From Trypanosoma brucei (Eukaryota), in contig CM000207.1 in NCBI GenBank assembly GCA_000002445.1, positions 2,368,001 through 2,432,000 on the forward strand: 64,000 nucleotides of DNA, given 5' to 3'. Under the pieces are notes generated by a model. It was given only the letters and a program-made list of their open reading frames with translations. It had not been told where the DNA came from and did not search any database. Shown here piece after piece: positions 32,771 to 55,817 of the stretch (position 1 is its first letter; every line of letters begins with the position of its first letter). Both the position numbers and the translations under genes were made by a program.

Positions 32771-32809
<39 letters not shown>
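32771..32809. repeat. Compound (AC)n-(AT)n microsatellite
   Basis: 'acacacacacacacacatatatatatatatatatatata' seen directly. Confidence 0.9.
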
Positions 32810-33248
32810 ATTTATATGGATTTATATGTTCTTATGTTTGTTTATGTGTGTGTTTATATGTATGTTTGTTTGTGCTTGTTTAGATGTTCTGTTTTGTCTT
32901 GTTTTGCCATATAAATTTATTACTATTGTGAACGGTTTGTCAAATAATAAAAACATTAAAAACCTCTCCCCTCCTTTCCCCTTCCTCAAAAAGGGAAAAA
33001 ACAGAAAGAAAAAGGAGTGGTGACGCACCGCTCTCCTTTGGTTTATTATTTGCTTAGATTTGTTTGTTTTCTTCGTTGTTGCTGGCATATAATAATCTAA
33101 GATTTTGTCTCTTCCATCTCTCCTCTTTTTCTCGGCTGTTTGTTTGTGTTTTTGTGTGTTTTTTTCCTTTTATCAAACGTACATGAATATATATATATAT
33201 GTATATTACTTTTGTTTTAGTCCTCTGATGATGTCGGCATTGCTTCCT

Positions 33249-33269
33249 TGTGTGTGTGTGTGTGTGTGT
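33249..33269. repeat. (TG)n microsatellite
   Basis: 'tgtgtgtgtgtgtgtgtgtg' seen directly. Confidence 0.9.
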
Positions 33270-36203: not shown

Positions 36204-37439
36204 ATGAGAACGATCCTCACCACATTAGGGTTATTGTTAGGCGTCACGCAGTACTCTGTGGGTGTCCCTGGAGCTGCCCTCAGCGTTGCAGCCGCTAGAA
36301 TAGTGTGCGAAGCGGCTATGGAACTTGGGAGAGCCGAATCTTATATCTCGATGAAACTGCGCGAAACGCGCGACTTGATCGAGTCCTTGAAAGTTGCTCG
36401 CAGACTCCTTGATGGCAAACTGCAGCGGGACAGACCCATCGGGGAGGAGTGCCTGAACGCAGTTAAGCTTATCGCTCACGCAGATGGTCTGGGTCGCAAA
36501 CTAGAGTCGCAATATTATGAGTTGGAGAGGATAGGGTTCAAAACCGCCTCCAAGTCCCGGCTGGCCTCCGGGAGACTCCACGAATTTATTTTAGTGTTTT
36601 CCCAGTGGCACGACGGCGAGGGCAGATGCATTGCCAACGGGGACGAGGAGGGCGACACACAGGGTGAAGTCACGCTGCGCCGTTGTATGAGCAGTTTGGT
36701 TAACGGAAGCTACGAAGACGGTGGCGGTGGCGTCCATCACAACTTCCCGCGTTATCTGAGGGAATCATTTCAGAATCTTTTTACGCTAGATGAGGATGTA
36801 TCGCTGAACAAGGATAATGGATGTCCTCTGACAAGGTGGAAAGTCATCCACAACGCAACGGCAAATGCCACGGGACGGAGTGGGGCCGCGGAAGATGTTA
36901 GGTGGGCAGGTGGGCTCCTTATTGTCACAGGTAACGGCCCCAGATGGATTTCAGACATTGAAGGGGTCCCGATGCTATCCAAAACGAAAACTAGCCTTGG
37001 AAAATTTGTGTCGATGTCCAGTAAAATTACCAGTGCCTTCAGTAATTTTATGGGAATAGTTTGGGCAGACAACCCGTGGTTGGTGAACAGCAGTGAAGTG
37101 GACAGTCTGATCGTGGGTGTTGACCTCTACATCTTTATGCACCCTTCCAGGGACTTCCAGATCAATGAAAGGGACCTAGACCGCCTGACAAAAACTTATT
37201 GTGGCGAACCCCTCCCCGCTCACGTGCGGCTCAGCGACAAAGTTGCTGACGGAAGGGACGGAAATAGTGACGTCTCGCCTCGCGGCCCTGTAGTCCCCGC
37301 AAACATATCTGAAACCAATACGATTTTCGGTAGCGATGATGACGATGAAGATTACAATGGTTTAACGGAGGTTAAGGCTGGGACCGAGCTTCTGTCGTTG
37401 TTGTTTCCCCTCGTGGCAATAAACCTTTTTCTTGTCTGA
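36204..37439 (+). CDS. GPI-anchored surface protein of the ESAG6/7-PAG (transferrin-receptor-like) lineage, 412 aa from the second Met
   Basis: Signal peptide 'MRTILTTLGLLLGVTQYSVG'. Motif 'ASGRLHEFILVFSQWHDGEGRCI' closely resembles ESAG6 'AAGRLEEWIFVFAQAAGRSSQFCI' (from memory). C-terminal GPI-type tail 'GTELLSLLFPLVAINLFLV'. The ORF-track start at 36132 lies inside the upstream polypyrimidine tract (36135-36198), so 36204 is the more likely start. Confidence 0.7.
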   Translation: MRTILTTLGLLLGVTQYSVGVPGAALSVAAARIVCEAAMELGRAESYISMKLRETRDLIESLKVARRLLDGKLQRDRPIGEECLNAVKLIAHADGLGRKLESQYYELERIGFKTASKSRLASGRLHEFILVFSQWHDGEGRCIANGDEEGDTQGEVTLRRCMSSLVNGSYEDGGGGVHHNFPRYLRESFQNLFTLDEDVSLNKDNGCPLTRWKVIHNATANATGRSGAAEDVRWAGGLLIVTGNGPRWISDIEGVPMLSKTKTSLGKFVSMSSKITSAFSNFMGIVWADNPWLVNSSEVDSLIVGVDLYIFMHPSRDFQINERDLDRLTKTYCGEPLPAHVRLSDKVADGRDGNSDVSPRGPVVPANISETNTIFGSDDDDEDYNGLTEVKAGTELLSLLFPLVAINLFLV

Positions 37440-38904
37440 TGTGAATGTAAAAGAAGTAACTGGCTCGTATATACATTGATCTCTTGTATTGGGTAGAGCT
37501 CGCCATTTTGCAGCCTATGCGTGCCACAACATCTGTCACCGTGTGTAACAAGTGAAGTTCCAGTTTACCTTGGTCATTGCATTTAACTTTCCTAAACCTC
37601 CATCCACATCGTGCACTCCGCCAAACTGTAGCGCGGGAAGTTGTTGAAAAATGTGAATCTCATTGCATCCTTTTGCAATCCGACTTTCTTGGTCCACGCA
37701 AGCATGGGTCAGAAAGCATTTTAGCCAACCTCGGAAGTCACAACCAAGGAACTCATAAAAAGAGCTCCTTCCTCCCTGGTACAGTGCGCTGTCAAAATAA
37801 AAGTCCTGTCCCCCTTTCCCTGACTGTTTTCTCCGCCGGTTAGGGCGGCTGCAGCGTTGGTAGAACCAGGTGGTATTTCGCGCTAAATCCTTATTCCAAA
37901 TGACGGTAGAACGCATCAAATGAGAGCAAACACAGAAAATTCGGTTATGATACTATTGTGATGCAGTCATTTCGGAAAGACGTGCAAAGGCGGTAGTGTT
38001 CAGCAGCGCAGCATTGTCGTCAAGGGAAACGGCGGGTAATGGGATGAGACAGTGGAGAACCCAGCACGCTGAAAGCTGAAGCACATTACAGACTCGTAGT
38101 GTTCAAGGAACGAACTGCACCTGCGTTAAGGTGCATGTCAACTTCAAAAATGCGAGGAATCAGCGCTGCTACTGAGAGGATTGTTGATTGCCACAGGAAG
38201 TGGCCCACCAACATGGTGCAGTGCGGTGCAATGAGGAGATCACTTGCTCACGCGACTCACAGAGGGAACTGAAGAGTATGCTACGGCCAAGTTAGAGCCA
38301 AGTGTACTGGACAGGATTATGAGGTGGGAACAGATAGGAACTAACAAGAAATCAAAACTACGTTTGTAAGATACACAAAGAAGAGGCGCACTGAAGATTA
38401 CTTCATGCCGCACTATTTTTGTGGCGGCCAAACTTAAAAGTGGAGAAGGGTAAAGGAAGTCAACGAGTGCCCGAAGCTTTTGTAATTATTTGGTTGAAGG
38501 AAGTTGCTCCAAAATGACGTGCGGAATGGCCGCGCAGCTAAGGCGGGAGAGAAAATTGTAGTAATTTAAAGCAAGGGTGAAGGAGCTTACCTGCTTATTT
38601 GCTTAAACGGCTGCACAGCAACCGTAGGGCAAAGAAATGGAATTCAGAAATACGGTAGAGGAAGATATGTGTACACGTGCAGCCGGTGTGGTTCCTTTGG
38701 GGTTCCGTTAGGTATTAAATGGGGGTAAAGCCATTGTCAATGACAGTGAGCACGAGGCCGAAGATAACGGCTGGTTCATCCGCTTACACAAGCAAATTTT
38801 TCAACAAACAGATACTTTTTTAACTTTCACTAACTGTAATTATATGCCTCTCAGTTAAACATAAGGCTAATAAATTCCAAAAGCGTTTCGATCGTAACGA
38901 TAGC

Positions 38905-41900
38905 GACATATGTCGCTAAGACACACATGAAAACATGCACAGTGGTCGTACCAAAGTATCCTCACCAGCGTAGCAACACAAAAAGTTAATGGAAATTTCC
39001 TATGGAAGAGAAACCATGCGATATTCCGGTAAGGCACTTGAAACCCTTCAGTAGCAGGCGATATCCACGGATCGTTAACAACATGGAATGAGAATCACAA
39101 CACACAAGGGGGAAAGGAATCGCAATTACTCTTTGAATATCAATACTTTTAGAGGGTCGAACTATCATCTGTCATCTGTCCCACGTGGCACTCTCACACA
39201 CCACATCAAGGGTGATGGGAGAAATTTTTTGTGGGAGCATACGATGGCCGATGAGTTGGTGAGAGATCAATTATGTTTGCAACACTGCCGTTTTGGTTAT
39301 TTTCTACTTGAGCACCTTTGATACAGTGGGCCATATCAGGGTTGTGCAATAAATGCGTAAAGTTAGTGGAGAAAAGTCTAACACCCTCTGCACCGCATCC
39401 TTACCAACAGAAGGAATGGCAGCAGCTCACTTAGATAAATCACTTCCCCCTGACAAGAATAGTTTAACAGAGGGCAGGTGAAAGGCACAGTGTTCAGCCT
39501 TTTACTGTTAAAAGCTGCAGTTACCTCCCTTCATTTTCTTACCAAACATCCCAAGACACAGCTTAAAGCATGGATTCTTTGTGGAAGACTTGACAGTGAG
39601 GAGAGGGAACGTGGATGGCTTTTCAGAAGGAACTGAATGTTATAGCTGTGATAGGAATCCGTATTTACTTCAGATAACTCGTCACGAAGAAAACAGGGTG
39701 TGAGGTGTTGGGAGGACATTTGGGGTCACGGTAATGCGGAAACGCGGCGACACCCACTCCATGTTGAATTTATATCCACACCGTTAATGTACTGGCAAAT
39801 CGGATATCCGCAGCGCCTTCTTACCCATAGAGTGCAAAGTGAAGAATACAAACTGACATTGACACTCTTCATTACTTCCAACATGTATTACACACGCGTT
39901 ACTCGGATGTAAGATATCGTGTGATTACAGGAGTTATTTCAAATATCAAGAGAGCTATGGAGAGTAATGGTTTCCTGATCTTTTTTCACCCATTCTGCCA
40001 TTTCATATCATCTCTCCCATGAAATTTCGATGATATGGGGAAACAATGTGTGGTGGAGCGTATATGTAAAAAGAAGACCTGAGGGCACTTTCACCCTGGG
40101 CACCTTGTCACACGAAATAGGAGCTATGGAAGACTTTCTCACTGAGGGTTGAGCCCCTTCCACACTATTTCATGGGATTCGTGCGAAGGGAAAACAGAAA
40201 AATTATGTTTTAGCAGTAGTCATGAAGAGTTTAATTTTGTGTGAAGTAATAACCCTGAGAACACTGAAACACTTCCATGAGATGTGTGGAAGAATGTCAA
40301 AATGTCAAGAAAGCTCAAAATACTTCACTTTTTGGTTCTTTTTTGATTTTGCTAGAGGACAAGGGTGAAACATGCAAGGCACTATGTACTGGGTTGTATT
40401 TTTAGTGGCGGTACTACAGGGTATTCATTTAGTGTCGGGCCAGGAGGAGATATTGAATGAACAAGAGTTTGAAGCGTTGTGTCGAATGATAAATTGGGCA
40501 GAAAGGGGACTGAAGCACATAAAAGTAACAAAACGAGTTACCCAAGAAGCTCTGAAAATAGGCGTAAGATATCTTGAAGTGGCCGGTGAGGAAAATGCTG
40601 CTGAACTCGCTGAGGCACAGGACTATTCTTGTACGAAGAGAATGGAGGATCGGAAAAGGAATTGTGGGCTGTACAAAACATTTTGGGAAGAGGCGCAGAG
40701 AGTATTGAACAAAGGGGTTGACAGCGGAGAAAGACCTGAGCGAAAAAAAAACGGCTTGCGGGAGCACAGTGCAGAGATTAGAAAAAAGGCAATGGAAGTG
40801 GCAGATATATATCACGAAATCGAAGCGAAGAGTCCATCTGGACAAGTAGAAAAGATTGAAGAACAGCTCAATAAAGCTCTTTATGGAAGGACACACACTG
40901 CTGAAGAGATAAGGGAAAGAGAAGAGCGAAGCAGGGTGTGCGGGAAAACATTACCAAATCCACCTAATAGAGAAGACCAATCACTAGCCGTGGATTTGCT
41001 GTGCTTGTGTGCAATGCACGGCTCTTGGAACGGCAGGGAGATATGCTGCGCAGACTGCACCACAGGAAGAAATAGCGAGGAGTGGAATCCAGAATCAAAC
41101 AGCGCGCACCGCTGGGAATTTCTGAAACAGAAGTGTGCGGGAGTCATTCCAAGCTATGGTAGCACGGGGGAAAGACTGCGTGATGCAAAACAAAATTTTA
41201 TGGATGCAGTAACGAAAATAACTACAAGGAGGGGGGAGCAGTTGTCCAAACTAGGAGAAAAGCAAAACAACAACGTAAAAGACTGCGGCGCGGACACAAG
41301 CAAGAGCCAAGGAATATGCATGCTGTACGGAGCAGTTGACGGAGTGAACCTGCCCTGGATGAAAACTTTGGAAAGTGTCGAAGACAGGATAGGACTTCTG
41401 ATGCAAGAGAGCCAAGACAAGACATCAAAACTTGAGAGAATTAAAGAGCTAAGTCAAGAGATAGAAAGCTTAATCAAAGGTGATACGGGGCGAGGAAGAC
41501 AACAGGGAAGACAGAAACGGAGTGTGGATACCGAGAACAGTGTCCCAGAAACCCCAGCTGACCCGAGCGATCCAACACAGTCAACCACAGATACCAATAG
41601 AAAAAAGCAAGGTGAAAGGAAACCGATATCAACAGGTAACGGTGCATCCAAAAGCTACGGTGGAGATGAGGTTGATTCTTACGATTCCAAATGCGATGGA
41701 GAAAACTCGGCATGCTCAGATTCACCAGCAAAGCCAACAGTAAAAAGCAGCAAAAGTGCTATAAATTGTCCACTGGGATTAATTTTGCTTTTGGTATAAA
41801 CGAAAAGTTCCAACACAAGGTAAGGAAAAAGAGATGGAATTGGTTGTGTTTGCGGCATCTCAATATTCCACACGGAGTGGGATGGTGTGCATTTCAAAAC

Positions 41901-44900
41901 TTGTACAGGAGACACGTGATGCGTCAGAGCAATCGTGCTCAGCAGCACAGCCATCCAGGAAGCCTAAACGAAAGAGGGAAATGTTGGGAGGGTTTATGCT
42001 TCGTGATACTAGTAATGCGTGTTGTTGAGAACCTTTTCATATTAAAAGGAACACTACAAAAACTGAAAGCATTTACGAATGATGGGAAAGCTCATAGAGG
42101 CTATAAACGGCTAAAATGTACCGGCCGTACTGAGTGGGTGGTGTGAAAATAAAAAGGGATATGTTGTAGAGAGTGTCAATACAGGAAGGCTACACAAATG
42201 GAAAGGAATAATAAATACAGAAAAAGGGACGTCATAATATTTTACTGAGCTCCATGCAGGAAGTGCAAGGGATATTTCCAATGGGGAAGTTGGGAAGGTT
42301 AAAAAAAAAGGCGAAAACATATGAGTGATAATGTAAATATAGTCTGATGGAAGGAAGTGTTGCTTTGGAAAAAGACAGACAAATAACTAAAAGAGGATTG
42401 ACTGGAGAAAATGATGCCAGGCGAAACACATAAAAAAATGGGTTCGGGAAGCATGGATATTTCGAACTTGGAACATAAAGACAAAAGAGCAGGAAAAGTT
42501 GTGGGAAATGGCATGTTATATATTTGCATCGTTATAGCAAAAAAAACTGTTTGGTGTGTCGAATGAGTGAAGGAACTGAGGCACTCAAGACCGCTGAATA
42601 AGAAAATGGAGAAGGAAAGCCACGGAAAGTAATGAGGGGATATCTTGAAAGCCGCGCACACAGACACGTACACTTGATAGCGGGGTGTGAAAAAGCAAGG
42701 AGTGGAACAAAAGCCTTCATCGCTATGATGGTTAAGAAATACGACACCACCACAATGCGCTGTATAATTCAAAGCAGACGTATTATTAAAGGGATCGGTA
42801 TTAGTGGAAATACCTGTGGTATTAACCTTTGCGGTGCTTGAAGTGATGGCATGAAAAAGATTAGAGATACCCTCTTCTGTGTTGTGTCGGATACATGGAA
42901 AAAGAAAGTGTGTGCTTGGCCTAAGGATGTAATGTGCTAAACCATAAGGCAGTAATAAAATACCTCAAAGCAATTCTATCGCCAAAAGGAATCGATGATG
43001 CTGTGGTTCAGACGAGAAATATCACACTACAGAATCCGACATTGCATGGGACGCAACTATGTGTCAACGCGGCGGTGATATAAGCTATCAAAGCAAAAAA
43101 TGATGCAATTATGGGGATTTATCATGCAGCAGCGTTGTCTACTATGGAAAATGCAGTAACCACTGAAAAGGAGGAAACATGCTTCAAGGAGCAAAAAGTA
43201 GCAGTGATTGCTGTAACAACAAGATTGTGGTTGTAAATAAAAAAAAAGAAAAGGAAGCGAAACTACGACCCAAGGATATTTAGAGTAGTATCGAAACTGC
43301 CTAAACATCACTAATGAATGCATATTTACCAAATGCGAATATATATGTATATGTGAATATATACGTACATCAATATTCTACAAAAATAGTGCTTTGCAGC
43401 GTGTGAGACTTTCAAAACATTTTTTGTGGAACACTTAAGCATAATTGTTGTTAATGGAAAATTGATCTATGGATACCTTCTTTTTGCTACATGTATTTTG
43501 AATTTGTTTGAGAGGAAAATGGTAACATCTCTGAGGTAAACTCTGGGACAATATAAAAGTGCTGGAGAAAATTTCTTGGTTTGACAGTAGCAATATCATG
43601 AACTAAAGAAGTGATTAAAAGATCTGTAACACGGGAGTATGTGCTTTTGCCATTGTACGATTTTCTTGATATATGCATTGAAGTGATTGATTGAATAGGG
43701 GTGCAAGTCTCATGAAACATGCTCTTCATTCAACCAAGGCTTTTTAGGAATATGCAGCAAAAGTCGAAAAATGACTGACTTGACAACCAAAATGGCGTCC
43801 CTATTCTATTAGTGAAAATTCGAATGAAACAGCACATAATGGAACTACATGAAAATTCAAAGGAAATGTGATATCAAATTCCTAACCCGCTGTATCAAAT
43901 TTCTCACACACCTTTCATAAAAGTATTTTTACATACATGTTTGAATTGAAAACACTCGACAAAATAATTTATGTGATCTGCGTATGAAATGTGTGATGAA
44001 TTCTGCCCAATCGTGCTAATCTCTCTATTATTGTTAAACCTCACCTTACCATTTGTTTCAGTAAAGGCAAGAAAGCAATATTAAATGATGAAATACTGTT
44101 AAACGGTGAAGTTACAAAGGAATATCTTTTCCGCAACAGAGAGTAACTATCTGAGAGGAGTTTAATGAACCGTGTACAATGATAGTGTCAGCACACTAAG
44201 TCTTGGAACAGCATAAACAGACTAGGATAACCAAAGGGGAAGAAGTGACACCTGGTGCTATGCAGTAACTAGCTTCAGAGGCAAAAAAAAGGCTGCTCAA
44301 TCCTATGGAAGCAATGTAACCTCACAGCCGTAGCAGTAGCGTGAATAAGAAAGGAAATGTGAACTTAGAAAAAACATATTGAACTCAAAGTGAAAAAGCA
44401 GAAGCAGTCAACCGCATAGAGGTATCAAAGGCATAACGTAGTTTGTTGGAAGGGGCGCCGAGCAAAATCAAGTTTTAGGCAGGTGATCCGGTATGGATGT
44501 ATCACACTGCACATGGATGCCACAAACCAAGAGACTTTGAATAGATGAAAGGAAAGATGAGAGACTTCGCGTCTATCAGGCGTGCTTGAGTTAGGGGCTG
44601 TAGTGGAAAGCAAACACAAACTGCTTACCCGAAGAGGGACAGTAACATGAACAATCCGAAATGGGTTTCAAACTATCTGGCACAATATCATTTTGACTGG
44701 GTCTGAGAGAGAGAGCTCTTTGGCCAGAGACAAACACGCGCGTTACTATAACCTTACAAATGACTCGAATACAGATATCAAATGCAATATTCTAAACGAA
44801 TAAAAACAAGGCTCAAGAGGCAACAATGCGGAAGATTCCGTTGAGTTACTTTACGTTAGCGTGAGGGTAGGAAAGAAAATGAAGAGATTTTGTGAATCTG

Positions 44901-47363
44901 GAAAAGGAAATGTGAGAACGCAACCCTACAACAGCTTTTAAAATATCCCATGGACTAAAGCGTTGAATAGAATTGACGGGAAAATGAGCAACCTGACTGT
45001 TAGCAAAGACAAGGGAAACTATGGCAAAGCTAACCTAGTTAAGCTGTGGCATCGCCAATTTAATTAAAACAAGCCAGAGTGAAGAGAGGATGCCATTCAG
45101 AGTTATAAGAAAGTAAAGCCATGAAAGTATAATTGGCACGATTACTTTGTTAAATTACGATACAAATACGAGTAAAACACAAATAATAATTATGGGAGCA
45201 AGCCAGGAGTTACCTGTGAAGGTGAAATTACTGCTGATTATAATAGTGCGGGTGTCTCTCGAATGAAACGCGAAAACCGTCGGCACAGTACAGCGTCCAC
45301 GCACTCAAACTGTGAAAGAGGATGTCAGTGGGTCAACGGTGAGATTGTGAGGCCACATCGCAAGCCAGTTATCTAAAACAGTGTGGGATTTGTTCAAACA
45401 TTACCCAGATTATATTTGTTTCTGTTTGTAAACGTGTGATTAGGCACTAAACTTCAATTCTAGCAGTGTTTGAATCTGTAGTACAATTAATATTTACCCC
45501 TTTCGTTTGAAAGTTAGTATAACTCTACGGTTTTGTCGGTCATTCAACGTAGTCTTGAAAGGGCCCAAAAGCACAAATACGTGACTTCTTAACATTTCAT
45601 CAGAGATGCACTACACCACACGGGTGAGCACATTGCCGTAACTAGGGGGTAGGTTTACTTTTTTGACACAGCTTCAAAAAGGTAGAACCTCGAATATGAT
45701 GCAAGTGGACCTCAGGTGGGGACTATCTGGCGCAAGAAAACGCTAGCAGAACTCGGGTCTCTCCCTCGCTTGAGGTAAAAGTTGTGTTGCATTGCGGGCT
45801 TCGGTGACGATTGCTCACTCCTTATTCAGATTTTTGAGGTTACCAAGCATGTAAAGCTAAGGGAGTGCAGTTCTTTCTCTGTAGTTGTTGGGTGAGCGGT
45901 TATGTAAATGTGTATATCTTCACATTTTTATATTTAAATGTTGGCTTTTACGAATTTTTTTGTTTGCAATGGGTTGAAATTACACGGCAACGACGTGGTT
46001 CAAGGTGTGAATTTTACTGATTTAGTTTTTGACGCCATCTCAGTTAGTGAAAGGATACGATGGCGATCCGCAAAGGGGAGGAAAAGGGCTTCCAAATTGC
46101 AGAGACGTACCAAAAATTGACAGGAATTTAGGTTGCTCAAAGGAAAATAATTATAGATATTAAGCGGCAAGAAACTTTGTGCTGGAGAGGCTTCTGGGGT
46201 TGGATTCTGTTTGACAGAAACTGCACGCCATGGCTGATAAGTGAGCTGCTTCCCATGAGGCATAGACGGGTGAATAATGCTTCCCTCAGTTTTTTGAGTG
46301 GGAATTCGTCGCTGTAAAAGATTCACCTGGTGTGAAAAGAATTGATAGAGCGTATCCGAACATTTTAATTACTCCAATCTAAGGAACAAGAAGTGTGAAA
46401 CATCTGGTGAGGGTAGAACGTCTTGTTACCTTAGCTCCCTTGGGCGGAACACAGGTGTAGGGTCGTGTAAAAAAGGGACGAGAGGTGTGTCTTCCTATTG
46501 AAGTTGGAGGTCTCTAGCTGAAAAAAAAAAGCCACTGACTCTAGTGACACGAATAGTCCAGACAATATCCCTAGGCGCGCGCACCTCACAGGCCGGCAGA
46601 ATAGTAAAACTCAATTTTCACTACAATCCAGTTACCAAACTGTACATTTAATCTTACTCTTCCCACTGTAAAAACATATAAGTGTTATTCAACTCGGGTG
46701 CTGAATCCATACCAAAGCACATAGAGGTAACAAATAAAAGTCGCTATTTCTGAAAACTAATTCACACTTGCCTGCGAATGCACACCTTTCCTTTAACATT
46801 CGTAAGACAGTATAGGGTCCTACTGAAGTCCTGGTTTACACAAGATATTATATACGATTGGTCACGCAGTCACCTCTGCTGCTTTCCGGACAATAAAGTG
46901 ACTAACTGCGAAGCATGGCTCTCAATGGGAGAGATTTTCTAAGCGGGTTAAAGAGCCATACTATGGAGACTCATACATGTGTATATTATTGTTGGGGTGA
47001 TTCACCAGCCCTTTTTACAAAATGTATAATATCCTCTTGCATTTGGCAGTGAAGCATAAAAGCGTGCTGCTGTTGTACTGAATATATCCCCTTTCCTTTG
47101 CGGTACCCTCCTTTCTCTTTATAAATAATGAGCCTGGTGTGAATTAGAAGAGTGTGCGAATTTATCCAAAATAGAGTGGGTGTAATGGGAAGACACATCA
47201 TGTGGAGGACACTCCGTATGCTAGCAGCTGATGCTTACGGTGGAAGTGGAAGAAGCATTCAGTATCCGAGGCGTAGTGCCACCTTGCCATAAATTGGCTG
47301 TCGGAGTTGACAAGAGATCACTGAAGTGGCAACCCTCCAAGGGCCACTTAGTGAAGATGTGCG
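38905..47363 (+). repeat. Macro-repeat unit 1 (~8.46 kb) of a tandem triplication
   Basis: Sequence from 'tgtcgctaagacacacatgaaaacatgcacagtggtcgt' (38911) recurs at 47370 and 55824. ORF-track ORFs recur at offsets of +8459 and +8453. Sequence upstream of 38905 has no counterpart, so the array starts here. Confidence 0.9.
40372..41799 (+). CDS. Secreted Cys-containing GPI-type surface glycoprotein (475 aa), VSG/ESAG-like fold suspected; paralogue A
   Basis: Signal peptide 'MQGTMYWVVFLVAVLQGIHLVSG'. Early Cys in 'EFEALCRMINWAE'. 'AVDLLCLCAMHGSW' Cys cluster. Dibasic 'RQKRS'. Pro/Thr/Ser-rich stalk 'VPETPADPSDPTQSTT'. Cys-rich C-terminal module 'CDGENSACSDSP'. Hydrophobic tail 'INCPLGLILLLV'. 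Upstream polyY+AG 'cttcactttttggttcttttttgattttgctag'. Confidence 0.8.
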   Translation: MQGTMYWVVFLVAVLQGIHLVSGQEEILNEQEFEALCRMINWAERGLKHIKVTKRVTQEALKIGVRYLEVAGEENAAELAEAQDYSCTKRMEDRKRNCGLYKTFWEEAQRVLNKGVDSGERPERKKNGLREHSAEIRKKAMEVADIYHEIEAKSPSGQVEKIEEQLNKALYGRTHTAEEIREREERSRVCGKTLPNPPNREDQSLAVDLLCLCAMHGSWNGREICCADCTTGRNSEEWNPESNSAHRWEFLKQKCAGVIPSYGSTGERLRDAKQNFMDAVTKITTRRGEQLSKLGEKQNNNVKDCGADTSKSQGICMLYGAVDGVNLPWMKTLESVEDRIGLLMQESQDKTSKLERIKELSQEIESLIKGDTGRGRQQGRQKRSVDTENSVPETPADPSDPTQSTTDTNRKKQGERKPISTGNGASKSYGGDEVDSYDSKCDGENSACSDSPAKPTVKSSKSAINCPLGLILLLV

Positions 47364-50300
47364 CCATTATGTCGCTAAGACACACATGAAAACATGCACA
47401 GTGGTCGTACCAAAGTATCCTCACCAGCGTAGCAACACAAAAAGTTAATGGAAATTTCCTATGGAAGAGAAACCATGCGATATTCCGGTAAGGCACTTGA
47501 AACCCTTCAGTAGCAGGCGATATCCAAGGATTGTTAACAACATGGAATGAGAATCACAACACACAAGGGGGAAAGGAATCGCAATTACTCTTTGAATATC
47601 AATACTTTTAGAGGGTCGAACTATCATCTGTCATCTGTCCCACGTGGCACTCTCACACACCACATCAAGGGTGATGGGAGAAATTTTTTGTGGGAGCATA
47701 CGATGGCCGATGAGTTGGTGAGAGATCAATTATGTTTGCAACACTGCCGTTTTGGTTATTTTCTACTTGAGCACTTTTGATACAGTGGGCCATATCAGGG
47801 TTGTGCAATAAATGCGTAAAGTTAGTGGAGAAAAGTCTAACACCCTCTGCACCGCATCCTTACCAACAGAAGGAATGGCAGCAGCTCACTTAGATAAATC
47901 ACTTCCCCCTGACAAGAATAGTTTAACAGAGGGCAGGTGAAAGGCACAGTGTTCAGCCTTTTACTGTTAAAAGCTGCAGTTACCTCCCTTCATTTTCTTA
48001 CCAAACATCCCAAGACACAGCTTAAAGCATGGATTCTTTGTGGAAGACTTGACAGTGAGGAGAGGGAACGTGGATGGCTTTTCAGAAGGAACTGAATGTT
48101 ATAGCTGTGATAGGAATCCGTATTTACTTCAGATAACTCGTCACGAAGAAAACAGGGTGTGAGGTGTTGGGAGGACATTTGGGGTCACGGTAATGCGGAA
48201 ACGCGGCGACACCCACTCCATGTTGAATTTATATCCACACCGTTAATGTACTGGCAAATCGGATATCCGCAGCGCCTTCTTACCCATAGAGTGCAAAGTG
48301 AAGAATACAAACTGACATTGACACTCTTCATTACTTCCAACATGTATTACACACGCGTTACTCGGATGTAAGATATCGTGTGATTACAGGAGTTATTTCA
48401 AATATCAAGAGAGCTATGGAGAGTAATGGTTTCCTGATCTTTTTTCACCCATTCTGCCATTTCATATCATCTCTCCCATGAAATTTCGATGATATGGGGA
48501 AACAATGTGTGGTGGAGCGTATATGTAAAAAGAAGACCTGAGGGCACTTTCACCCTGGACACCTTGTCACACGAAATAGGAGCTATGGAAGACTTTCTCA
48601 CTGAGGGTTGAGCCCCTTCCACACTATTTCATGGGATTCGTGCGAAGGGAAAACAGAAAAATTATGTTTTAGCAGTAGTCATGAAGAGTTTAATTTTGTG
48701 TGAAGTAATAACCCTGAGAACACTGAAACACTTCCATGAGATGTGTAGAAGAATGTCAAAATGTCAAGAAAGCTCAAAATACTTCACTTTTTGGTTCTTT
48801 TTTGATTTTTCTAGAGGACAAGGGTGAAACATGCAAGGCACTATGTACTGGGTTGTATTTTTAGTGGCGGCACTACAGGGTATTCATTTAGTGTTGGGCC
48901 AGGAGGAGATATTGAATGAACAAGAGTTTGAAGCGTTGTGTCGAATGATAAATTGGGCAGAAAGGGGACTGAAGCACATAAATTTGGCACGACAGGTTAC
49001 TGAAGAAGCTCTGAAAATAGGCGTAAGATATCTTGAAGTGGCCGGCGAGGAGGAGGTTACAGAGCTTACCGAACTGCAGGAGAAGGCGTGCATGAGCAAC
49101 AAGAAGACAAGTCACGAAAAGAATTGTGGACTGTACAAAACATTTTGGGAAGAGTCACAGGAAGCATTGAAGAGGACTGCCAGATCGCAAGCGCCTCATC
49201 GAGGAAGGAACAGTTTGCAATATCATACAGCGGAAGGAATTAAAATCAAAGTAATGGAAGTGGCGGATACGTATCACGAGGTCAAAAAAGAAATCTTGAA
49301 ACTTAGAACGGATAACATGGAGGAGCAACTCAATCAAGCTCTTTATGGAGTAGGACATTTTACTGGAGAGGTAAAAGGAGGGGATTCGGACCGAAGCAGA
49401 GTGTGTGGACAAAACCTGGGCAACCGCGACGCCACTGGAGGTTGGTCACTAGCCGTGGATTTGTTGTGCTTGTGTGCGAGGCACATATCCTGGAGCAGCG
49501 TGAAGAGTGTATGCTGTGAGGAGTGCGGTACGGGAGAGAACAGCAACACATGGAACCCAGCATTAGACGGAGCACTACACTGGGAATTTCTAAAAGAGAA
49601 TTGTCCAGGTGATAATACAAATCACCATACAGAGGGCGAACAGCTGAAAAGCGCCAAAAAGAATTTTATGGCAAAAGTGTCTAAAATAGCCACTATCCCA
49701 TATAGAACTATGTACAAGCTTGGAGACAGTAAAAATATACAAACAAAGCAATGCGGGGCTAACATAGGCACTGGCCAGGGAATATGCGTGTACTACGGAT
49801 CTGATAATGGAGCGAATCTGCACTGGATGCAAGCGTTGGAAAGGGTTGAAAATGATGTTGAAGTTCTTCTGCAAGACAGTAAATATAAGTCGACTAAGCT
49901 AAAGAGGATTAAAGAGCTAAGTCAAGAGATTCAGAACCTAATCGAAGGTGGCACGCCGCGGGGAAGACAGAAACGGAGTGTGGATACCGAGAACAGTGTC
50001 CCAGAAACCCCAGCTGACCCGAGCGATCCAACACAGTCAACCACACATACCAATGAAAAAAAGCGAATTGTAAGAAAACCGATATCAACAGGTAACAATG
50101 CATCCAAAAGCTACGGTGGAGATGAGGTTGATTCTTACGATTCCAAATGCGATGGAGAAAACTCGGCATGCTCAGATTCACCAGCAAAGCCAACAGTAAA
50201 AAGCAGCAAAAGTGCTATAAATTGTCCACTGGGATTAATTTTGCTTTTGGTATAAACGAAAAGTTCCAACACAAGGTAAGGAAAAAGAGATGGAATTGGT

Positions 50301-53300
50301 TGTGTTTGCGGCATCTCAATATTCCACACGGAGTGGGATGGTGTGCATTTCAAAACTTGTACAGGAGACATGTGATGCGTCAGAGCAATCGTGCTCAGCA
50401 GCACAGCCATCCAGGAAGCCTAAACGAAAGAGGGAAATGTTGGGAGGGTTTATGCTTCGTGATACTAGTAATGCGTGTTGTTGAGAACCTTTTCATATTA
50501 AAAGGAACACTACAAAAACTGAAAGCATTTACGAATGATGGGAAAGCTCATAGAGGCTATAAACGGCTAAAATGTACCGGCCGTACTGAGTGGGTGGTGT
50601 GAAAATAAAAAAGTATATGTTGTAGAGAATGTCGATACCGGAAGGCTACAAGAATGGAAGGAATAATAAATACAGAAAAAGAGACGCCATACTTTTCACT
50701 GAGCTATCTACAGGACATGGAAGGGATATTTCCAATGGGGAAGTTGGGAAGGTTAAAAAAAAAGGCGAAAACATATGAGTGATAATGTAAATATAGTCTG
50801 ATGGAAGGAAGTGTTGCTTTGGAAAAAGACAGACAAATAACTAAAAGAGGATTGACTGGAGAAAATGATGCCAGGCGAAACACATAAAAAAATGGGTTCG
50901 GGAAGCATGGATATTTCGAACTTGGAACATAAAGACAAAAGAGCAGGAAAAGTTGTGGGAAATGGCATGTTATATATTTGCATCGTTATAGCAAAAAAAA
51001 CTGTTTGGTGTGTCGAATGAGTGAAGGAACTGAGGCACTCAAGACCGCTGAATAAGAAAATGGAGAAGGAAAGCCACGGAAAGTAATGAGGGGATATCTT
51101 GAAAGCCGCGCACACAGACACGTACACTTGATAGCGGGGTGTGAAAAAGCAAGGAGTGGAACAAAAGCCTTCATCGCTATGATGGTTAAGAAATACGACA
51201 CCACCACAATGCGCTGTATAATTCAAAGCAGACGTATTATTAAAGGGATCGGTATTAGTGGAAATACCTGTGGTATTAACCTTTGCGGTGCTTGAAGTGA
51301 TGGCATGAAAAAGATTAGAGATACCCTCTTCTGTGTTGTGTCGGATACATGGAAAAAGAAAGTGTGTGCTTGGCCTAAGGATGTAATGTGCTAAACCATA
51401 AGGCAGTAATAAAATACCTCAAAGCAATTCTATCGCCAAAAGGAATCGATGATGCTGTGGTTCAGACGAGAAATATCACACTACAGAATCCGACATTGCA
51501 TGGGACGCAACTATGTGTCAACGCGGCGGTGATATAAGCTATCAAAGCAAAAAATGATGCAATTATGGGGATTTATCATGCAGCAGCGTTGTCTACCATG
51601 GAAAATGCAGTAACCACTGAAAAGGAGGAAACATGCTTCAAGGAGCAAAAAGTAGCAGTGATTGCTGTAACAACAAGATTGTGGTTGTAAATAAAAAAAA
51701 AGAAAAGGAAGCGAAACTACGACCCAAGGATATTTAGAGTAGTATCGAAACTGCCTAAACATCACTAATGAATGCATATTTACCAAATGCGAATATATAT
51801 GTATATGTGAATATATACGTACATCAATATTCTACAAAAATAGTGCTTTGCAGCGTGTGAGACTTTCAAAACATTTTTTGTGGAACACTTAAGCATAATT
51901 GTTGTTAATGGAAAACTGATCTATGGATACCTTCTTTTTGCTACATGTATTTTGAATTTGTTTGAGAGGAAAATGGTAACATCTCTGAGGTAAACTCTGG
52001 GACAATATAAAAGTGCTAAAGGAAATTTCTGGGTTTGACAGTAGCAATATCATGAACTAAAGAAGTGATTAAAAGATCTGTAACACGGGAGTATGTGCTT
52101 TTGCCATTGTACGATTTTCTTGATATATGCATTGAAGTGATTGATTGAATAGGGGTGCAAGTCTCATGAAACATGCTCTTCATTCAACCAAGGCTTTGTA
52201 AGAATATGCAGCAAAAGTCGAAAAATGACTGACTTGACAACCAAAATGGCGTCCCTATTCTATTAGTGAAAATTCGAATGAAACAGCACATAATGGAACT
52301 ACATGAAAATTCAAAGGAAATGTGATATCAAATTCCTAACCCGCTGTATCAAATTTCTCACACACCTTTCATAAAAGTATTTTTACATACATGTTTGAAT
52401 TGAAAACACTCGACAAAATAATTTATGTGATATGCATGTGAAATGTGTGATGAATTCTGCCCAATCGTGCTAATCTCTCTATTATTGTTAAACCTCACCT
52501 TACCATTTGTTTCAGTAAAGGCAAGAAAGCAATATTAAATGATGAAATACTGTTAAACGGTGAAGTTACAAAGGAATATCTTTTCCGCAACAGAGAGTAG
52601 CTATCTGAGAGGAGTTTAATGAACCGCGTACAATGATAGTGTCAGCACACTAAGTCTTGGAACAGCATAAACAGACTAGGATAACCAAAGGGGAAGAAGT
52701 GACACCTGGTGCTATGCAGTAACTAGCTTCAGAGGCAAAAAAAAGGCTGCTCAATCCTATGGAAGCAATGTAACCTCACAGCCGTAGCAGTAGCGTGAAT
52801 AAGAAAGGAAATGTGAACTTAGAAAAAACATATTGAACTCAAAGTGAACAAACAGAAGCAGTCAACCGCATAGAGGTATCAAAGGCATAACGTAGTTTGT
52901 TGGAAGGGGCGCCGAGCAAAATCAAGTTTTAGGCAGGTGATCCGGTATGGATGTATCACACTGCACATGGATGCCACAAACCAAGAGACTTTGAATAGAT
53001 GAAAGGAAAGATGAGAGACTTCGCGTCTATCAGGCGTGCTTGAGTTAGGGGCTGTAGTGGAAAGCAAACACAAACTGCTTACCCGAAGAGGGACAGTAGC
53101 ATGTACAATCCGAAATGGGTTTCAAACTATCTGGCACAATTCCATTTTGACTGGGTGTGAGAGAGAGTTCTTGGGACAGAGACAAACACGCGCGTTACTA
53201 TAACCTTACAAATGACTCGAATACAGATATCAAATGCAATATTCTAAATGAACAATAAAAACAAGGCTCAAGAGGCAACAATGCATAAGATTCCGTTGAG

Positions 53301-55817
53301 TTACTTTACGTTAGCGTGAGGGTAGGAAAGAAAATGAAGAGATTTTGTGAATCTGGAAAAGGAAATGTGAGAACGCAACCCTACAACAGCTTTTAAAATA
53401 TCCCATGGACTAAAGCGTTGAATAGAATTGACGGGAAAATGAGCAACCTGACAGTGAGCACAAACAAGGGAAACTATGGCAAAGCTTACATAGTTAAGCT
53501 GTGGCATGTCAATTTAATTAAAACGTGCCAGAGTGAAGAGAGGATGCCATTCAGAGTTATAAGAAAGCAAAGCCATGAAAGTGTAATTGACACGATTACT
53601 TTGTTACAATCCGATACAAATACGAGTAAAACACAAATAATAATTATGGGAGCAAGCCAGGAGTTACCTGTGAAGGTGAAATTACTGCTGATTATAATAG
53701 TGCGAGTGGCTCTTGACACAAATGCGAAAACCGTAAGCACAGTTCAGCGTCCACGAGCTCAAACTGTGAAACAGGATGAAAGCTGGTCAACGGTGAGATT
53801 GTGAGGCCACATCGCGAGTCAGTCATCTAAAACAGTGTGAATTTCGTTCAAACATTACCCAGGTTATATTTGTTTCTGTTTGTAAACGTGTGATTAGGCA
53901 CTAAACTTCAATTCTAGCAGTGTTTGAATCTGTAGTACAATTAATATTTACCCCTTTCGTTTGAAAGTTAGTATAACTCTACGGTTTTGTCGGTCATTCA
54001 ACGTAGTCTTGAAAGGGCCCAAAAGCACAAATACGTGACTTCTTAACATTTCATCAGAGATGCACTACACCACACGGGTGAGCACATTGCCGTAACTAGG
54101 GGGTAGGTTTACTTTTTTGACACAGCTTCAAAAAGGTAGAACCTCGAATATGATGCAAGTGGACCTCAGGTGGGGACTATCTGGCGCAAGAAAACGCTAG
54201 CAGAACTCGGGTCTCTCCCTCGCTTGAGGTAAAAGTTGTGTTGCATTGCGGGCTTCGGTGACGATTGCTCACTCCTTATTCAGATTTTTGAGGTTACCAA
54301 GCATGTAAAGCTAAGGGAGTGCAGTTCTTTCTCTGTAGTTGTTGGGTGAGCGGTTATGTAAATGTGTATATCTTCACATTTTTATATTTCAATGTTGGCT
54401 TTTACGAATTTTTTTGTTTGCAATGGGTTGAAATTACACGGCAACGACGTGGTTCAAGGTGTGAATTTTACTGATTTAGTTTTTGACGCCATCTCAGTTA
54501 GTGAAAGGATACGATGGCGATCCGCAAAGGGAAGGAAAGAGACTTCCGGATTGCAGAGACGTACCAAAAATTGACAGGAATTTAGGTTGCTCAAAGGAAA
54601 ATAATTATAGATACTAAGCGGTAAGAAACTTTGTGCTGGAGAGGCTTCTGGGGTTGGATTCTGTTTGACAGAAACTGCACGCCATGACTGATAAGTGAGC
54701 TGCTTCCCCTGAGGCATAGACGTGTGAAAAATGCTTCCCTCAGTTTTTTGAGTGGGAATTCGTCGCTGTAAAAGATTCACCTGGTGTGAAAAGAATTGAT
54801 AGAGCGTATCCGAACATTTTAACTATTCCAATCTAAGGAACAAGGAGTGTGAAACATCTGGTGAGGGTAGAACGTCTTGTTACCTTAGCTCCCTTGGGCG
54901 GAACACAGGTGTAGGGTCGTGTAAAAAAGGGACGAGAGGTGTGTCTTCCTATTGAAGTTGGAGGTCTCTAGCTGAAAAAAAAAAGCCACTGACTCTAGTG
55001 ACATGAATAGTCCAGACAATATCCCTAGGCACGTGCACCTCACAGGCCGGCAGAATAGTAAAACTTAATTTTCACTACAATCCAGTTACCAAACTGTACA
55101 TTTAATCTTACTCTTCCCACTGTAGAAACATATAAGTGTTATTCAACTCGGGTGCTGAATCCATACCAATTCACATAGAGGTAACAAATAAAAGCCGCTA
55201 TTTCTGAAAACTAATTCACACTTGCCTGCGAATGCACACCTCTCCTTTAACATTCGTAAGACAGTATAGGGTCCTACTGAAGTCCTGGTTTACACAAGAT
55301 ATTATATACGATTGGTCACGCAGTCACCTCTGCTGTTTTCCGGACAATAAAGTGACTAACTGCGAAGCATGGCTCTCAATGGGAGAGATTTTCTAAGCGG
55401 GTTAAAGAGCCACACTATGGAGACTCATACGTGTGTATATTATTGTTGGGGTGATTCACCAGCCTTTTTTACAAAATGTATAATATCCTCTTGCATTTGG
55501 CAGTGAAGCATAAAAGCGTGCTGCTGTTGTACTGAATATATCCCCTTTCCTTTGCGGTACCCTCCTTTCTCTTTATAAATAATGAGCCTGGTGTGAATTA
55601 GAAGAGTGTGCGAATTTATCCAAAATAGAGTGGGTGTAATGGGAAGACACATCACGTAGAGGACACTCCGTATGCTAGCAGCTGATGCTTACGGTGGAAG
55701 TGGAAGAAGCATTCAGTATCCGAGGCGTAGTGCCACCTTGCCATAAATTGGCTGTCGGAGTTGACAAGAGATCACTGAAGTGGCAACCCTCCAAGGGCCA
55801 CTTAGTGAAGATGTGCG
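47364..55817 (+). repeat. Macro-repeat unit 2 (~8.45 kb)
   Basis: Near-identical to unit 1 outside the central part of the embedded gene. Confidence 0.9.
48831..50255 (+). CDS. Paralogue B of the 475-aa surface glycoprotein family (474 aa)
   Basis: First ~50 and last ~95 residues identical to A; the middle ~330 residues are a mosaic. Confidence 0.8.
   Translation: MQGTMYWVVFLVAALQGIHLVLGQEEILNEQEFEALCRMINWAERGLKHINLARQVTEEALKIGVRYLEVAGEEEVTELTELQEKACMSNKKTSHEKNCGLYKTFWEESQEALKRTARSQAPHRGRNSLQYHTAEGIKIKVMEVADTYHEVKKEILKLRTDNMEEQLNQALYGVGHFTGEVKGGDSDRSRVCGQNLGNRDATGGWSLAVDLLCLCARHISWSSVKSVCCEECGTGENSNTWNPALDGALHWEFLKENCPGDNTNHHTEGEQLKSAKKNFMAKVSKIATIPYRTMYKLGDSKNIQTKQCGANIGTGQGICVYYGSDNGANLHWMQALERVENDVEVLLQDSKYKSTKLKRIKELSQEIQNLIEGGTPRGRQKRSVDTENSVPETPADPSDPTQSTTHTNEKKRIVRKPISTGNNASKSYGGDEVDSYDSKCDGENSACSDSPAKPTVKSSKSAINCPLGLILLLV

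What the first reader, a model, noticed from the sequence alone, without database searches (positions are those of the whole stretch)
40520..41520. Patchwork mosaic between the three 475-aa paralogues: identical ends, segment-wise reshuffled middle
Paralogues A, B and C share identical N-termini (~50 aa) and C-termini (~95 aa), but the middle diverges block by block. A and C share blocks such as 'AEEIREREERSRVCG' and '...GRGRQQGRQKR'. B and C share 'HRGRNSLQYHTAEE.K.KVMEVAD' and 'THTNEKKRIVRKPISTGNN'. A alone has 'TDTNRKKQGERKPISTGNG'. No single tree explains this. It is the signature of segmental gene conversion or recombination generating diversity in an exposed domain while the signal peptide, stalk and anchor stay constant, as occurs with VSG mosaics but here in a chromosome-internal tandem family.
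Basis: seen in the sequence. Interest (0 to 1): 0.8.

Follow-up and report, generated by a model that had tools for sequence, protein, structure and literature searches.

The report
Mosaic VSG-related gene array, T. brucei
Three neighbouring copies of a trypanosome surface-protein gene have almost identical ends and flanks but old, deeply diverged middles that were reshuffled by gene conversion, a pattern already well documented for tandem gene arrays in this parasite.

Summary
The window is Trypanosoma brucei TREU927 chromosome 9: a BARP array, a GRESAG4, an a-type VSG-like gene, then 8.45-kb tandem units, each carrying a b-type VSG-related gene annotated 'VSG, atypical'.

Copies A, B and C are 99-100% identical over about 1.4 kb upstream and about 0.6 kb downstream. 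This includes non-coding DNA. The roughly 1-kb N-terminal-domain core is only 65-74% identical.

In the core, the nearest relative switches at least six times. The evidence is:
- runs test z = -6.0, against -0.17 +/- 1.0 in single-tree simulations;
- a 3SEQ-like test with p of 1e-4 to 1e-3;
- significant GENECONV-like tracts for all three pairs;
- PHI p of about 5e-4.

Core synonymous divergence is near saturation (dS 0.6-1.2) and dN/dS is 0.30-0.43. The cores are therefore old lineages under constraint, not fast post-duplication divergence, and the ends were homogenised recently.

The mosaic extends to the intergenic DNA and to all nine family members. The gambiense and equiperdum copies differ by one sharp tract of about 240 nt.

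The genes lack 70-bp repeats and the VSG 3'UTR 16-mer, so they are not switching cassettes.

Verdict: concerted evolution plus segmental gene conversion, making this a new member of a known kind. Adaptive diversification is not shown.

The parts
38903..47361 (+). Tandem repeat unit A (8.45 kb)
   Evidence: Self-BLASTN: 38909-55539 matches 47368-64000 at 93.4%, and 38903-47085 matches 55815-64000 at 92.1%. Three-unit MAFFT alignment.
47362..55814 (+). Tandem repeat unit B
55815..64000 (+). Tandem repeat unit C, cut by the end of the window. By accession order the array continues with two more copies, P0006 then P0005.
   Evidence: Accession order EAN77376, 77377, 77379, 77382, 77385.
40372..41799 (+). 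CDS A, 475 aa, b-type VSG-related protein (= P0001, XP_827706, annotated 'VSG, atypical')
   Evidence: ORF. Pfam VSG_B E = 5e-84 over profile positions 2-351 of 352. 100% match to the TREU927 protein.
48831..50255 (+). CDS B, 474 aa (= P0007, XP_827707)
57284..58708 (+). CDS C, 474 aa (= P0002, XP_827709)
40522..41499 (+). Divergent mosaic core of A (codon-alignment columns 151-1140). This is most of the N-terminal domain.
   Evidence: 64.6-73.6% nt identity, dS 0.62-1.23, dN/dS 0.30-0.43. At least 6 nearest-neighbour switches.
48981..49961 (+). Divergent mosaic core of B
57431..58408 (+). Divergent mosaic core of C
39021..40521 (+). Homogenised 5' flank of unit A: non-coding upstream DNA, the signal peptide and the first ~50 codons. 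Approximate equivalents are 47480-48980 in B and 55933-57430 in C.
   Evidence: 98-100% identical among A, B and C in 100-nt windows up to 40396 (87% A-B and 78-82% to C in the last window, 40496-40595), but 75-100% (mostly 80-97%) to the Tbg and Teq units.
41500..42155 (+). Homogenised 3' part of unit A: the C-terminal ~95 codons plus the proximal 3' flank. It contains one A-specific patch at 41590-41642.
   Evidence: B = C at 100%; A is at 96.6% with 10 consecutive A-only differences (9 non-synonymous, 1 synonymous; not significant, p = 0.47).
40556..40586 (+). Shared tract A = B (C is the odd one out)
   Evidence: 7 consecutive matching polymorphic sites, global permutation p = 0.002.
40725..40781 (+). 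Shared tract B = C (A is the odd one out). It lies inside the wider A-out segment 40654-40873.
   Evidence: Runs of 7 and 16 matching polymorphic sites, p = 0.04 and 2e-4. Segment counts 53:16:14. dS(BC) falls to 0.35-0.42 here, against about 1 or saturated (inf) in the neighbouring windows.
40909..40941 (+). Shared tract A = C
   Evidence: 10 matching polymorphic sites, p = 0.025.
41422..41493 (+). Shared tract A = C (B is the odd one out), together with a 12-nt indel shared by A and C (the GRQQ motif)
   Evidence: 19 of 19 informative sites, p = 2e-4. dS(AC) = 0.02 in window 1021-1140.
42284..44600 (+). Intergenic block where A = B and C differs by about 5-12%
   Evidence: 96 consecutive C-odd sites at the start, and further runs up to 44599.
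44687..45409 (+). Intergenic block where B = C and A differs
   Evidence: 55 consecutive A-odd sites.
45476..45863 (+). Intergenic block where A = B and C differs
   Evidence: 37 consecutive C-odd sites.

Best explanation
The locus is a chromosome-internal tandem array of b-type VSG-related (VR, 'atypical VSG') genes in Trypanosoma brucei TREU927 chromosome 9. Three of its five copies lie in the window. It evolves by two scales of homologous recombination.

Long-tract conversion or unequal crossing-over keeps the 8.45-kb units nearly identical. This covers the 5' flank, signal peptide, C-terminal tail, 3' flank and much of the intergenic DNA.

The ~1-kb N-terminal-domain core keeps old, deeply diverged sequence lineages. 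These are exchanged only in short patches of tens to a few hundred bp, between array members and other family copies. The patches tend to be bounded by the conserved cysteine-framework motifs.

What is shown: the recombination signal, the age contrast between core and flanks, the family membership, and a clean tract between strains.

What is inferred:
- The enzymology is the general RAD51/BRCA2-dependent templated repair known for VSG mosaics.
- The core escapes homogenisation because its divergence blocks long heteroduplexes, and/or because selection favours keeping distinct forms.
- All copies are co-transcribed as ordinary Pol II genes rather than switched.
For: Identity of the locus: 100% match to TREU927 proteins on a 3.06-Mb contig. 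Pfam VSG_B E of 1e-83 to 1e-87. AF2 model with pLDDT 75.7, whose top 20 PDB hits are all class-B VSG N-terminal domains. The nearest non-family relatives are annotated VSG-related proteins.

Tandem units.

Flanks versus core: 99-100% against 58-78% in the same unit. Core dS is 0.62-1.23 against about 0 in the flanks, and dN/dS is 0.30-0.43.

Mosaic in the core: runs test, 3SEQ-like test, segmentation with at least 6 switches, GENECONV-like tracts for all three pairs, and PHI p of about 5e-4 on five CDS. A single-tree simulation does not reproduce the signal. Synonymous distances themselves change by segment: dS(BC) is 0.35-0.42 in columns 301-480 against about 1 or saturated beside it, and dS(AC) is 0.02 in columns 1021-1140.

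Mosaic outside the CDS: sharp intergenic blocks.

Family-wide patchwork: global identities are a flat 58-71%, but 16-aa windows reach 80-100% with changing partners.

Between strains: the Tbg and Teq CDS have 4 mismatches in columns 190-715, then about 27-30% divergence (dS 0.89) in columns ~715-955, then near identity again. The tract lies between the CCxDCTTG and GICV motifs.

Mechanistic precedent: DSB-induced, RAD51/BRCA2-dependent, templated mosaic formation needs less than 50-100 bp of imperfect flanking homology and uses donors anywhere in the genome (PMC13233330). Gene conversion and mosaics were found in 31 of 35 T. brucei tandem arrays, with CDS often more divergent than UTRs (PMC1855330; PMC2854126).
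Against: - DNA was available for only 5 of the 9 family clusters (11 sequences), so donors and direction of most tracts cannot be assigned.
- dS in the core is close to saturation, so ages and dN/dS are rough.
- In the databases searched, Lister 427, EATRO1125 and T. b. gambiense each show only one near-identical family member. An ancient multi-copy array then requires loss, collapse or presence/absence polymorphism in those strains, and none of these was tested.
- Why the core resists homogenisation is inferred, not shown.
- No site-wise test for positive selection was possible.
Confidence: 0.75

Rival explanations
1. This is a dedicated, adaptive diversification system. Recombination is selected because it creates new exposed-domain variants under host immune or ligand pressure, while constant modules are preserved.
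For: Variation is concentrated in predicted loops (mean column entropy 1.23 against 0.81 in helices, p = 1e-6). VR proteins as a class are surface-enriched in bloodstream forms (PMC4587319). All copies are intact ORFs with 12 invariant N-terminal-domain cysteines. TREU927 copies have no counterpart at 90% identity or above in four other strains, unlike other VR families.
Against: Average dN/dS is 0.30-0.43 and does not exceed 1 in any well-estimated core window. The same kind of mosaic occurs in non-coding spacer DNA. The 'constant' ends are constant at synonymous and non-coding sites too, which points to homogenisation rather than constraint. The Tbg-type copy is virtually unchanged in three strains. 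There is no switching apparatus.
Confidence: 0.15
2. A recent TREU927-specific segmental duplication was followed by very fast point-mutation divergence of the N-terminal domain. This is the general reading given for such brucei-specific duplications in PMC2854126.
For: The syntenic gambiense locus has one unit between the a-type VR gene and an RHS gene. The flanks of A, B and C are 99-100% identical, as expected for young duplicates. PMC2854126 describes 'recent duplication and rapid structural divergence' for similar arrays and lists a chromosome-9 'atypical VSG' duplication.
Against: Core dS of 0.6-1.2 is about 100 times the ~0.8% coding divergence between the subspecies (99.2% identity, PMC2854126), while dS in the flanks of the same genes is about 0. 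dN/dS below 0.45 implies long purifying selection. Blocks are shared in changing combinations among nine family members, including other strains. The Tbg/Teq tract has dS of 0.89 with sharp edges.
Confidence: 0.05
3. Core segments were imported by ectopic conversion from the subtelomeric VSG archive (pseudogenes), as in mosaic VSG formation.
For: T. brucei can use donors anywhere in the genome with short homology (PMC13233330). Pseudogene donors would be invisible to protein searches.
Against: An exhaustive profile search of 1.84 billion representatives shows the family as one isolated cluster: 900 bits, against 195 bits for the next hit, which is another VR. The word-indexed search of 5.8 billion proteins finds only the same nine clusters. 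Every well-matched block found has its partner inside the family.
Confidence: 0.05
4. The pattern is an assembly or haplotype-merging artefact in the TREU927 reference.
For: Tandem repeats with near-identical flanks are hard to assemble. Two further family members sit on separate TREU927 entries (CAJ16171, CAJ16160) with no contig on record.
Against: Switches occur every 30-200 bp inside intact ORFs, which is well below read length. All copies keep their reading frame and cysteine framework. The same patchwork appears in independently assembled gambiense and equiperdum genes.
Confidence: 0.03

Closest known systems
VSG-related (VR) / 'atypical VSG' genes of T. brucei (Marcello & Barry 2007, as cited in PMC2771046, PMC3605285 and PMC6988115)
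   Same: Chromosome-internal position, no 70-bp repeats, a VSG-type N-terminal domain, and not part of monoallelic expression. The nearest non-family homologues are annotated VR proteins. Probable identity with the Tb09.244.2xxx VR genes, which are up 3-7.6-fold in cultured bloodstream forms (PMC2771046), is inferred from position next to BARP and was not verified.
   Different: Other VR families are single, stable orthologues at 90% identity or above across TREU927, gambiense, Lister 427, EATRO1125 and equiperdum. This one is a 5-copy tandem array in TREU927 whose members have no such counterparts in those strains.
Mosaic, concertedly evolving tandem gene arrays of T. brucei such as ISG65, BARP and GRESAG4 (Jackson 2007, PMC1855330; Jackson et al. 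2010, PMC2854126)
   Same: Head-to-tail units, positive recombination tests, non-coding parts more uniform than the CDS, and subspecies-specific copies that are recombinants of other duplicates.
   Different: The contrast here is extreme: flanks are 99-100% identical while core dS is near saturation. The array is not in their Table 2. [quoted passage not shown]
Mosaic VSG formation during infection (segmental gene conversion into the active expression site; PMC13233330)
   Same: Short templated patches bounded by imperfect homology within a VSG-fold N-terminal domain. The same general recombination machinery is plausible.
   Different: This is a germline pattern among intact, co-resident Pol II-context genes, not a somatic event in a telomeric expression site. 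There are no archive pseudogene donors, no 70-bp repeats and no conserved VSG 3'UTR element.
Fam1, a b-VSG-derived tandem array on chromosome 6 (PMC3605285)
   Same: T. brucei-specific and b-VSG-derived. It lacks the canonical C-terminal domain, has a predicted GPI anchor, forms a 5-copy tandem array in TREU927 against one copy in gambiense, and is biased to bloodstream forms.
   Different: Fam1 copies differ by only 0.1-3.2% at nucleotide level. The chromosome-9 cores differ by 26-35%.

Membership tests
Class-B VSG N-terminal domain superfamily (Pfam PF13206 VSG_B) | Full-length match to the VSG_B profile above the gathering score | tested here: met
   E = 5e-84, 8e-87 and 6e-83; 280-292 bits against a cut-off of 25; profile positions 2-351 of 352.
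Class-B VSG N-terminal domain superfamily (Pfam PF13206 VSG_B) | Class-B VSG fold | tested here: met
   AF2 model from a 76-sequence alignment, mean pLDDT 75.7, N-terminal domain mostly above 80. The top 20 Foldseek PDB hits are all class-B VSGs (mVSG1954, VSG11, VSG3, VSG615), probability 1.00, E down to 5.6e-7. TM-scores are only 0.37-0.47, so the global superposition is imperfect. A PDB profile search hits 8b3w at E = 3e-7.
Canonical switching VSG cassette | 70-bp repeats upstream | tested here: not met
   TRF finds no such array in 32000-64000.
Canonical switching VSG cassette | Conserved 16-mer TGATATATTTTAACAC in the 3'UTR (motif recalled from own knowledge) | tested here: not met
   0 matches in the whole window with up to 2 mismatches.
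Canonical switching VSG cassette | Subtelomeric or expression-site location | tested here: not met
   The array lies on the same strand after a BARP array, a GRESAG4 and an a-type VSG-like gene. The syntenic core locus in gambiense chromosome 9 is at 2.10-2.12 Mb of 2.16 Mb, and an RHS gene follows.
Canonical switching VSG cassette | Structured cysteine-rich C-terminal domain and standard GPI signal | tested here: inconclusive
   The C-terminal ~100 aa are predicted disordered (pLDDT 32-55) with only two family-invariant cysteines (C441, C448). They end in the hydrophobic tail PLGLILLLV. No GPI predictor was available.
VSG-related (VR) genes | Chromosome-internal, VSG-like, lacking 70-bp repeats, and closest to other VR proteins | tested here: met
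   NCBI names these genes 'VSG, atypical' rather than 'VSG-related'.
VSG-related (VR) genes | Expressed outside monoallelic control and present at the surface | not testable with these tools
   Literature only, and for VR genes as a class (PMC2771046, PMC4587319, PMC6988115). The mapping of the old gene IDs onto these three CDS is inferred.
Concertedly evolving mosaic tandem arrays of T. brucei | Tandem units with a statistically supported recombination signal | tested here: met
Concertedly evolving mosaic tandem arrays of T. brucei | Paralogues within a genome more alike in their flanks than the same flanks are between strains | tested here: met
   A, B and C flanks are 99-100% identical to each other, against 80-97% to the Tbg and Teq units.
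Somatic mosaic VSG formation | Arises during infection in the active expression site from archive donors | not testable with these tools
   Only germline sequence is available. No extra-family donors were found among proteins.

The most novel reading that the evidence does not exclude
The chromosome-9 VR cores could be ancient allelic or paralogous lineages of a host-facing VSG-fold protein, held by long-term balancing selection. TREU927 would have stacked five to seven of them in tandem between homogenised 'cassette' flanks, while other strains carry one. The locus would then be a chromosome-internal, Pol II-context germline shuffling system that gives strain-specific repertoires. That is a possible intermediate between ordinary surface-gene arrays and the VSG archive.
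Probability: 0.15. Interest if true: 0.6.

Novelty: new member of a known kind. Interest (0 to 1): 0.35.

Why it matters
VR proteins are a poorly understood class of VSG-fold proteins on the bloodstream-form surface. This array corrects a tempting reading of such brucei-specific duplications as 'young duplicates that diverged fast'. Here the flanks are young and the cores are old, and the two are joined by recombination.

It is also a natural example of short-tract, homology-bounded conversion acting outside the antigenic-variation loci. This fits the recent finding that mosaic formation needs only short homology and no special sequence context. Practically, the near-identical flanks and diverged cores mean that read mapping, copy-number calls and orthology assignments at this locus will be unreliable without long reads.

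Tried and rejected
- Fetching DNA for the other TREU927 paralogues (P0005, P0006) and beyond the window end through P0002 failed, because the sequences are not on record. Those copies could only be analysed as proteins.
- The accession look-up for the gambiense record failed.
- Marcello & Barry 2007 is not held.
- Guessed new-style gene IDs (Tb927.9.1568x and neighbours) led to papers of no evident relevance, which were not opened.
- A single-sequence PDB search found nothing.
- The first AF2 model, from 9 sequences, was too poor to use (pLDDT 52.6).
- A second word-indexed protein search with the family profile returned the same nine clusters.
- Model coordinates are not exposed, so variability could not be mapped to the top or bottom lobe. 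Only a helix-versus-loop comparison was possible.
- Rfam and tRNA scans of the window were empty.
- The 9 non-synonymous to 1 synonymous patch in A's C-terminal tail looked like positive selection but is not significant (p = 0.47).
- 'Lineage-specific acceleration on one tree' was considered as an explanation for the clustering and rejected. Each of the three patterns dominates somewhere, synonymous distances shift too, and simulations with clustered rates do not reproduce the signal.
Full report
**What and where.** The 475-aa ORF at 40372-41799 is 100% identical to a Trypanosoma brucei brucei TREU927 protein annotated 'variant surface glycoprotein (VSG, atypical), putative', on a 3.06-Mb contig. 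The window reads, all on the + strand:
- thirteen BARP/GARP-family ORFs at 1590-24269;
- a 346-aa ORF;
- a GRESAG4-type adenylate cyclase at 28157-31885;
- an a-type VSG-like ORF at 36132-37439;
- from 38903 to the window end, head-to-tail units of about 8.45 kb.

Each unit holds one b-type VSG-like CDS: A at 40372-41799, B at 48831-50255 and C at 57284-58708. Each matches Pfam VSG_B at E of 1e-83 to 1e-87 over the whole profile. By accession order the array continues beyond the window with two more copies, P0006 then P0005. The syntenic gambiense locus has the order GRESAG4, a-type gene, one b-type gene, then an RHS gene.

**Checking the observation.** Nucleotide identity is 95-99% in the first 150 nt, 64.6-73.6% in columns 151-1140 (A 40522-41499), and 96.6-100% after that.

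Across 383 informative sites, the 'odd one out' pattern is strongly clustered. The runs test gives z = -6.9 overall and -6.0 in the core. The 3SEQ-like excursion test gives p of 1.5e-4 to 1.5e-3 in the core. A conservative segmentation gives at least six switches:

| Segment (A coordinates) | Odd one out |
|---|---|
| 40412-40590 | C |
| 40594-40652 | B |
| 40654-40873 | A |
| 40888-41060 | B |
| 41061-41109 | A |
| 41111-41493 | B |
| 41590-41642 | A |

GENECONV-like longest-tract tests are significant for all three pairs: A-B p = 0.002, A-C p = 2e-4, B-C p = 2e-4. I also simulated one tree with spatially clustered rates. This gave z = -0.17 +/- 1.0 (minimum -3.0 in 200 runs) and minor-pattern runs of at most 8 sites, against 21 observed.

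There are three points.

1. The 'identical ends' are not a property of the protein. A, B and C are 99-100% identical through about 1.4 kb of upstream and about 0.6 kb of downstream non-coding DNA. The same flanks are only 80-97% identical to the gambiense and equiperdum units. The ends were homogenised recently within TREU927.

2. The middle is old, not fast. Nei-Gojobori dS in the core is 0.62-1.23, near saturation, against about 0 in the flanking codons. dN/dS is 0.30-0.43. Synonymous distance also changes by segment: dS(BC) is 0.35-0.42 in columns 301-480 and about 1 or saturated beside it, and dS(AC) is 0.02 in columns 1021-1140. That is a change of genealogy, not of selection.

3. The mosaic is not confined to the exposed domain. 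The spacer shows clean blocks: A = B over 42284-44600, B = C over 44687-45409 (55 consecutive sites), and A = B over 45476-45863.

**The wider family.** Two searches of 5.8 billion proteins, and an exhaustive profile search of 1.84 billion representatives, find one isolated family of nine clusters. It scores 900 bits, against 195 bits for the next hit. The next hits are annotated VSG-related proteins from other chromosomes. Each of those is conserved at 90% identity or above in TREU927, gambiense, Lister 427, EATRO1125 and equiperdum.

Within the family, global identities are a flat 58-71%. Windows of 16 aa, however, reach 80-100% with changing partners. C-terminal tails fall into groups {A,B,C}, {P0005,P0006} and {P0004,P0009}, as expected if neighbours homogenise each other.

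The gambiense and equiperdum genes are the clearest case. They show 4 mismatches in columns 190-715, then about 27-30% divergence (dS 0.89) over columns ~715-955, then near identity again. The tract lies between the conserved CCxDCTTG and GICV motifs. The equiperdum version is closest to A, and the gambiense version is closest to P0005 and P0004. A PHI-type test on the five available CDS gives p of about 5e-4. The gambiense-type copy is virtually unchanged in Lister 427 (VSG-632) and EATRO1125 (1125.1139).

**What kind of gene.** A model built from a 76-sequence alignment has pLDDT 75.7. Its top 20 PDB matches are all class-B VSG N-terminal domains, although TM-scores are modest. The last ~100 residues are predicted disordered and poor in cysteine.

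There are no 70-bp repeats and no VSG 3'UTR 16-mer. The locus is in the chromosome core. This is therefore a VSG-related gene family, not a switching cassette.

The literature reports VR genes as chromosome-internal, lacking 70-bp repeats and not monoallelic (PMC2771046, PMC6988115). It also reports them as surface-enriched in bloodstream forms (PMC4587319). Five Tb09.244.2xxx VR genes beside BARP are 3-7.6-fold higher in cultured bloodstream forms than in procyclic forms. Equating them with this array is my inference.

Family variability is higher in predicted loops than in helices (entropy 1.23 against 0.81, p = 1e-6). I could not map it to the membrane-distal face, because coordinates are not exposed.

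**Mechanism.** The best-supported account is concerted evolution of the repeat unit by long-tract conversion or unequal crossing-over. Superimposed on this is short-tract templated conversion among old N-terminal-domain core lineages.

The recombination itself is shown. The enzymology is inferred from T. brucei work. That work showed RAD51/BRCA2-dependent, templated mosaic formation needing less than 50-100 bp of imperfect homology, with donors usable anywhere in the genome (PMC13233330). Why the core escapes homogenisation, whether by heteroduplex rejection or by selection for distinct forms, remains open.

The rivals fit less well. These are fast divergence after a recent duplication, import from the subtelomeric archive, an assembly artefact, and a dedicated adaptive diversification system. 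The evidence for and against each is given in the rival explanations section.

**Comparison with what is known.** Mosaics and concerted evolution are documented for most variable T. brucei tandem arrays, 31 of 35 tested, and the CDS is often more divergent than the UTRs (PMC1855330; PMC2854126). PMC2854126 also notes a chromosome-9 'segmental duplication in T. b. brucei of an atypical VSG' (Fig. S1, probably this locus). [quoted passage not shown]

This array is not in their recombination table. My results add that it is mosaic and that its cores are old. That is a refinement, not a new kind of system.

Noticed in passing
window 1590-24269: Thirteen tandem BARP/GARP-family ORFs of 254-326 aa, spaced about 1.8 kb apart (Pfam GARP E = 3e-72 for the first). 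Lengths vary between copies. The literature already reports this array as mosaic.
   Followed up: partly
window 25447-26487: A 346-aa ORF between the BARP array and GRESAG4, with a hydrophobic N-terminus. It has no Pfam hit above cut-off and no BLASTP similarity to BARP.
   Followed up: partly
window 36132-37439; L002 5758-7062; L001 4031-5266: An a-type VSG-like gene (Pfam Trypan_glycop E = 9e-7) sits just upstream of the repeat and outside it. It is syntenic in gambiense (434 aa) and equiperdum (411 aa), so an a-type and a b-type VR family lie side by side.
   Followed up: partly
window 41800-48830 and equivalents in units B and C: About 7 kb between successive VR coding sequences has no ORF longer than 157 aa, no Rfam family and no tRNA. 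That is unusually long and empty for the T. brucei core. GC skew and AT skew are both positive on the + strand.
   Followed up: partly
A residues 380-383 (window about 41509-41520) and all nine family members: An invariant dibasic RQKR motif sits at the junction between the folded N-terminal domain and the disordered tail. N-glycosylation sequons are scarce, 0-2 per protein, with none in A or P0009.
   Followed up: no
window 41691-42146, 50147-50602, 58600-59055: Identical 151-aa ORFs overlap the 3' end of each VR CDS in another frame. This is most likely a by-product of the repeat, and there is no evidence that they are coding.
   Followed up: no
window 32000-34000: An AT-rich trough (GC 0.33) with pyrimidine-rich short tandem tracts at 32544-32904 lies between GRESAG4 and the a-type VSG-like gene.
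   Followed up: no
P0008, P0010, P0011 (L002 10001-11431): The single family member of T. b. gambiense DAL972 is virtually identical to Lister 427 VSG-632 and EATRO1125 VSG 1125.1139. TREU927 has no copy closer than 71% to it. This suggests a strain-level presence/absence or copy-number polymorphism at the locus.
   Followed up: partly
window 48948-49005 (CDS B only): TRF reports an imperfect 31-nt repeat of 1.9 copies inside CDS B, at the boundary between the homogenised 5' part and the divergent core. It may be a chance similarity.
   Followed up: no
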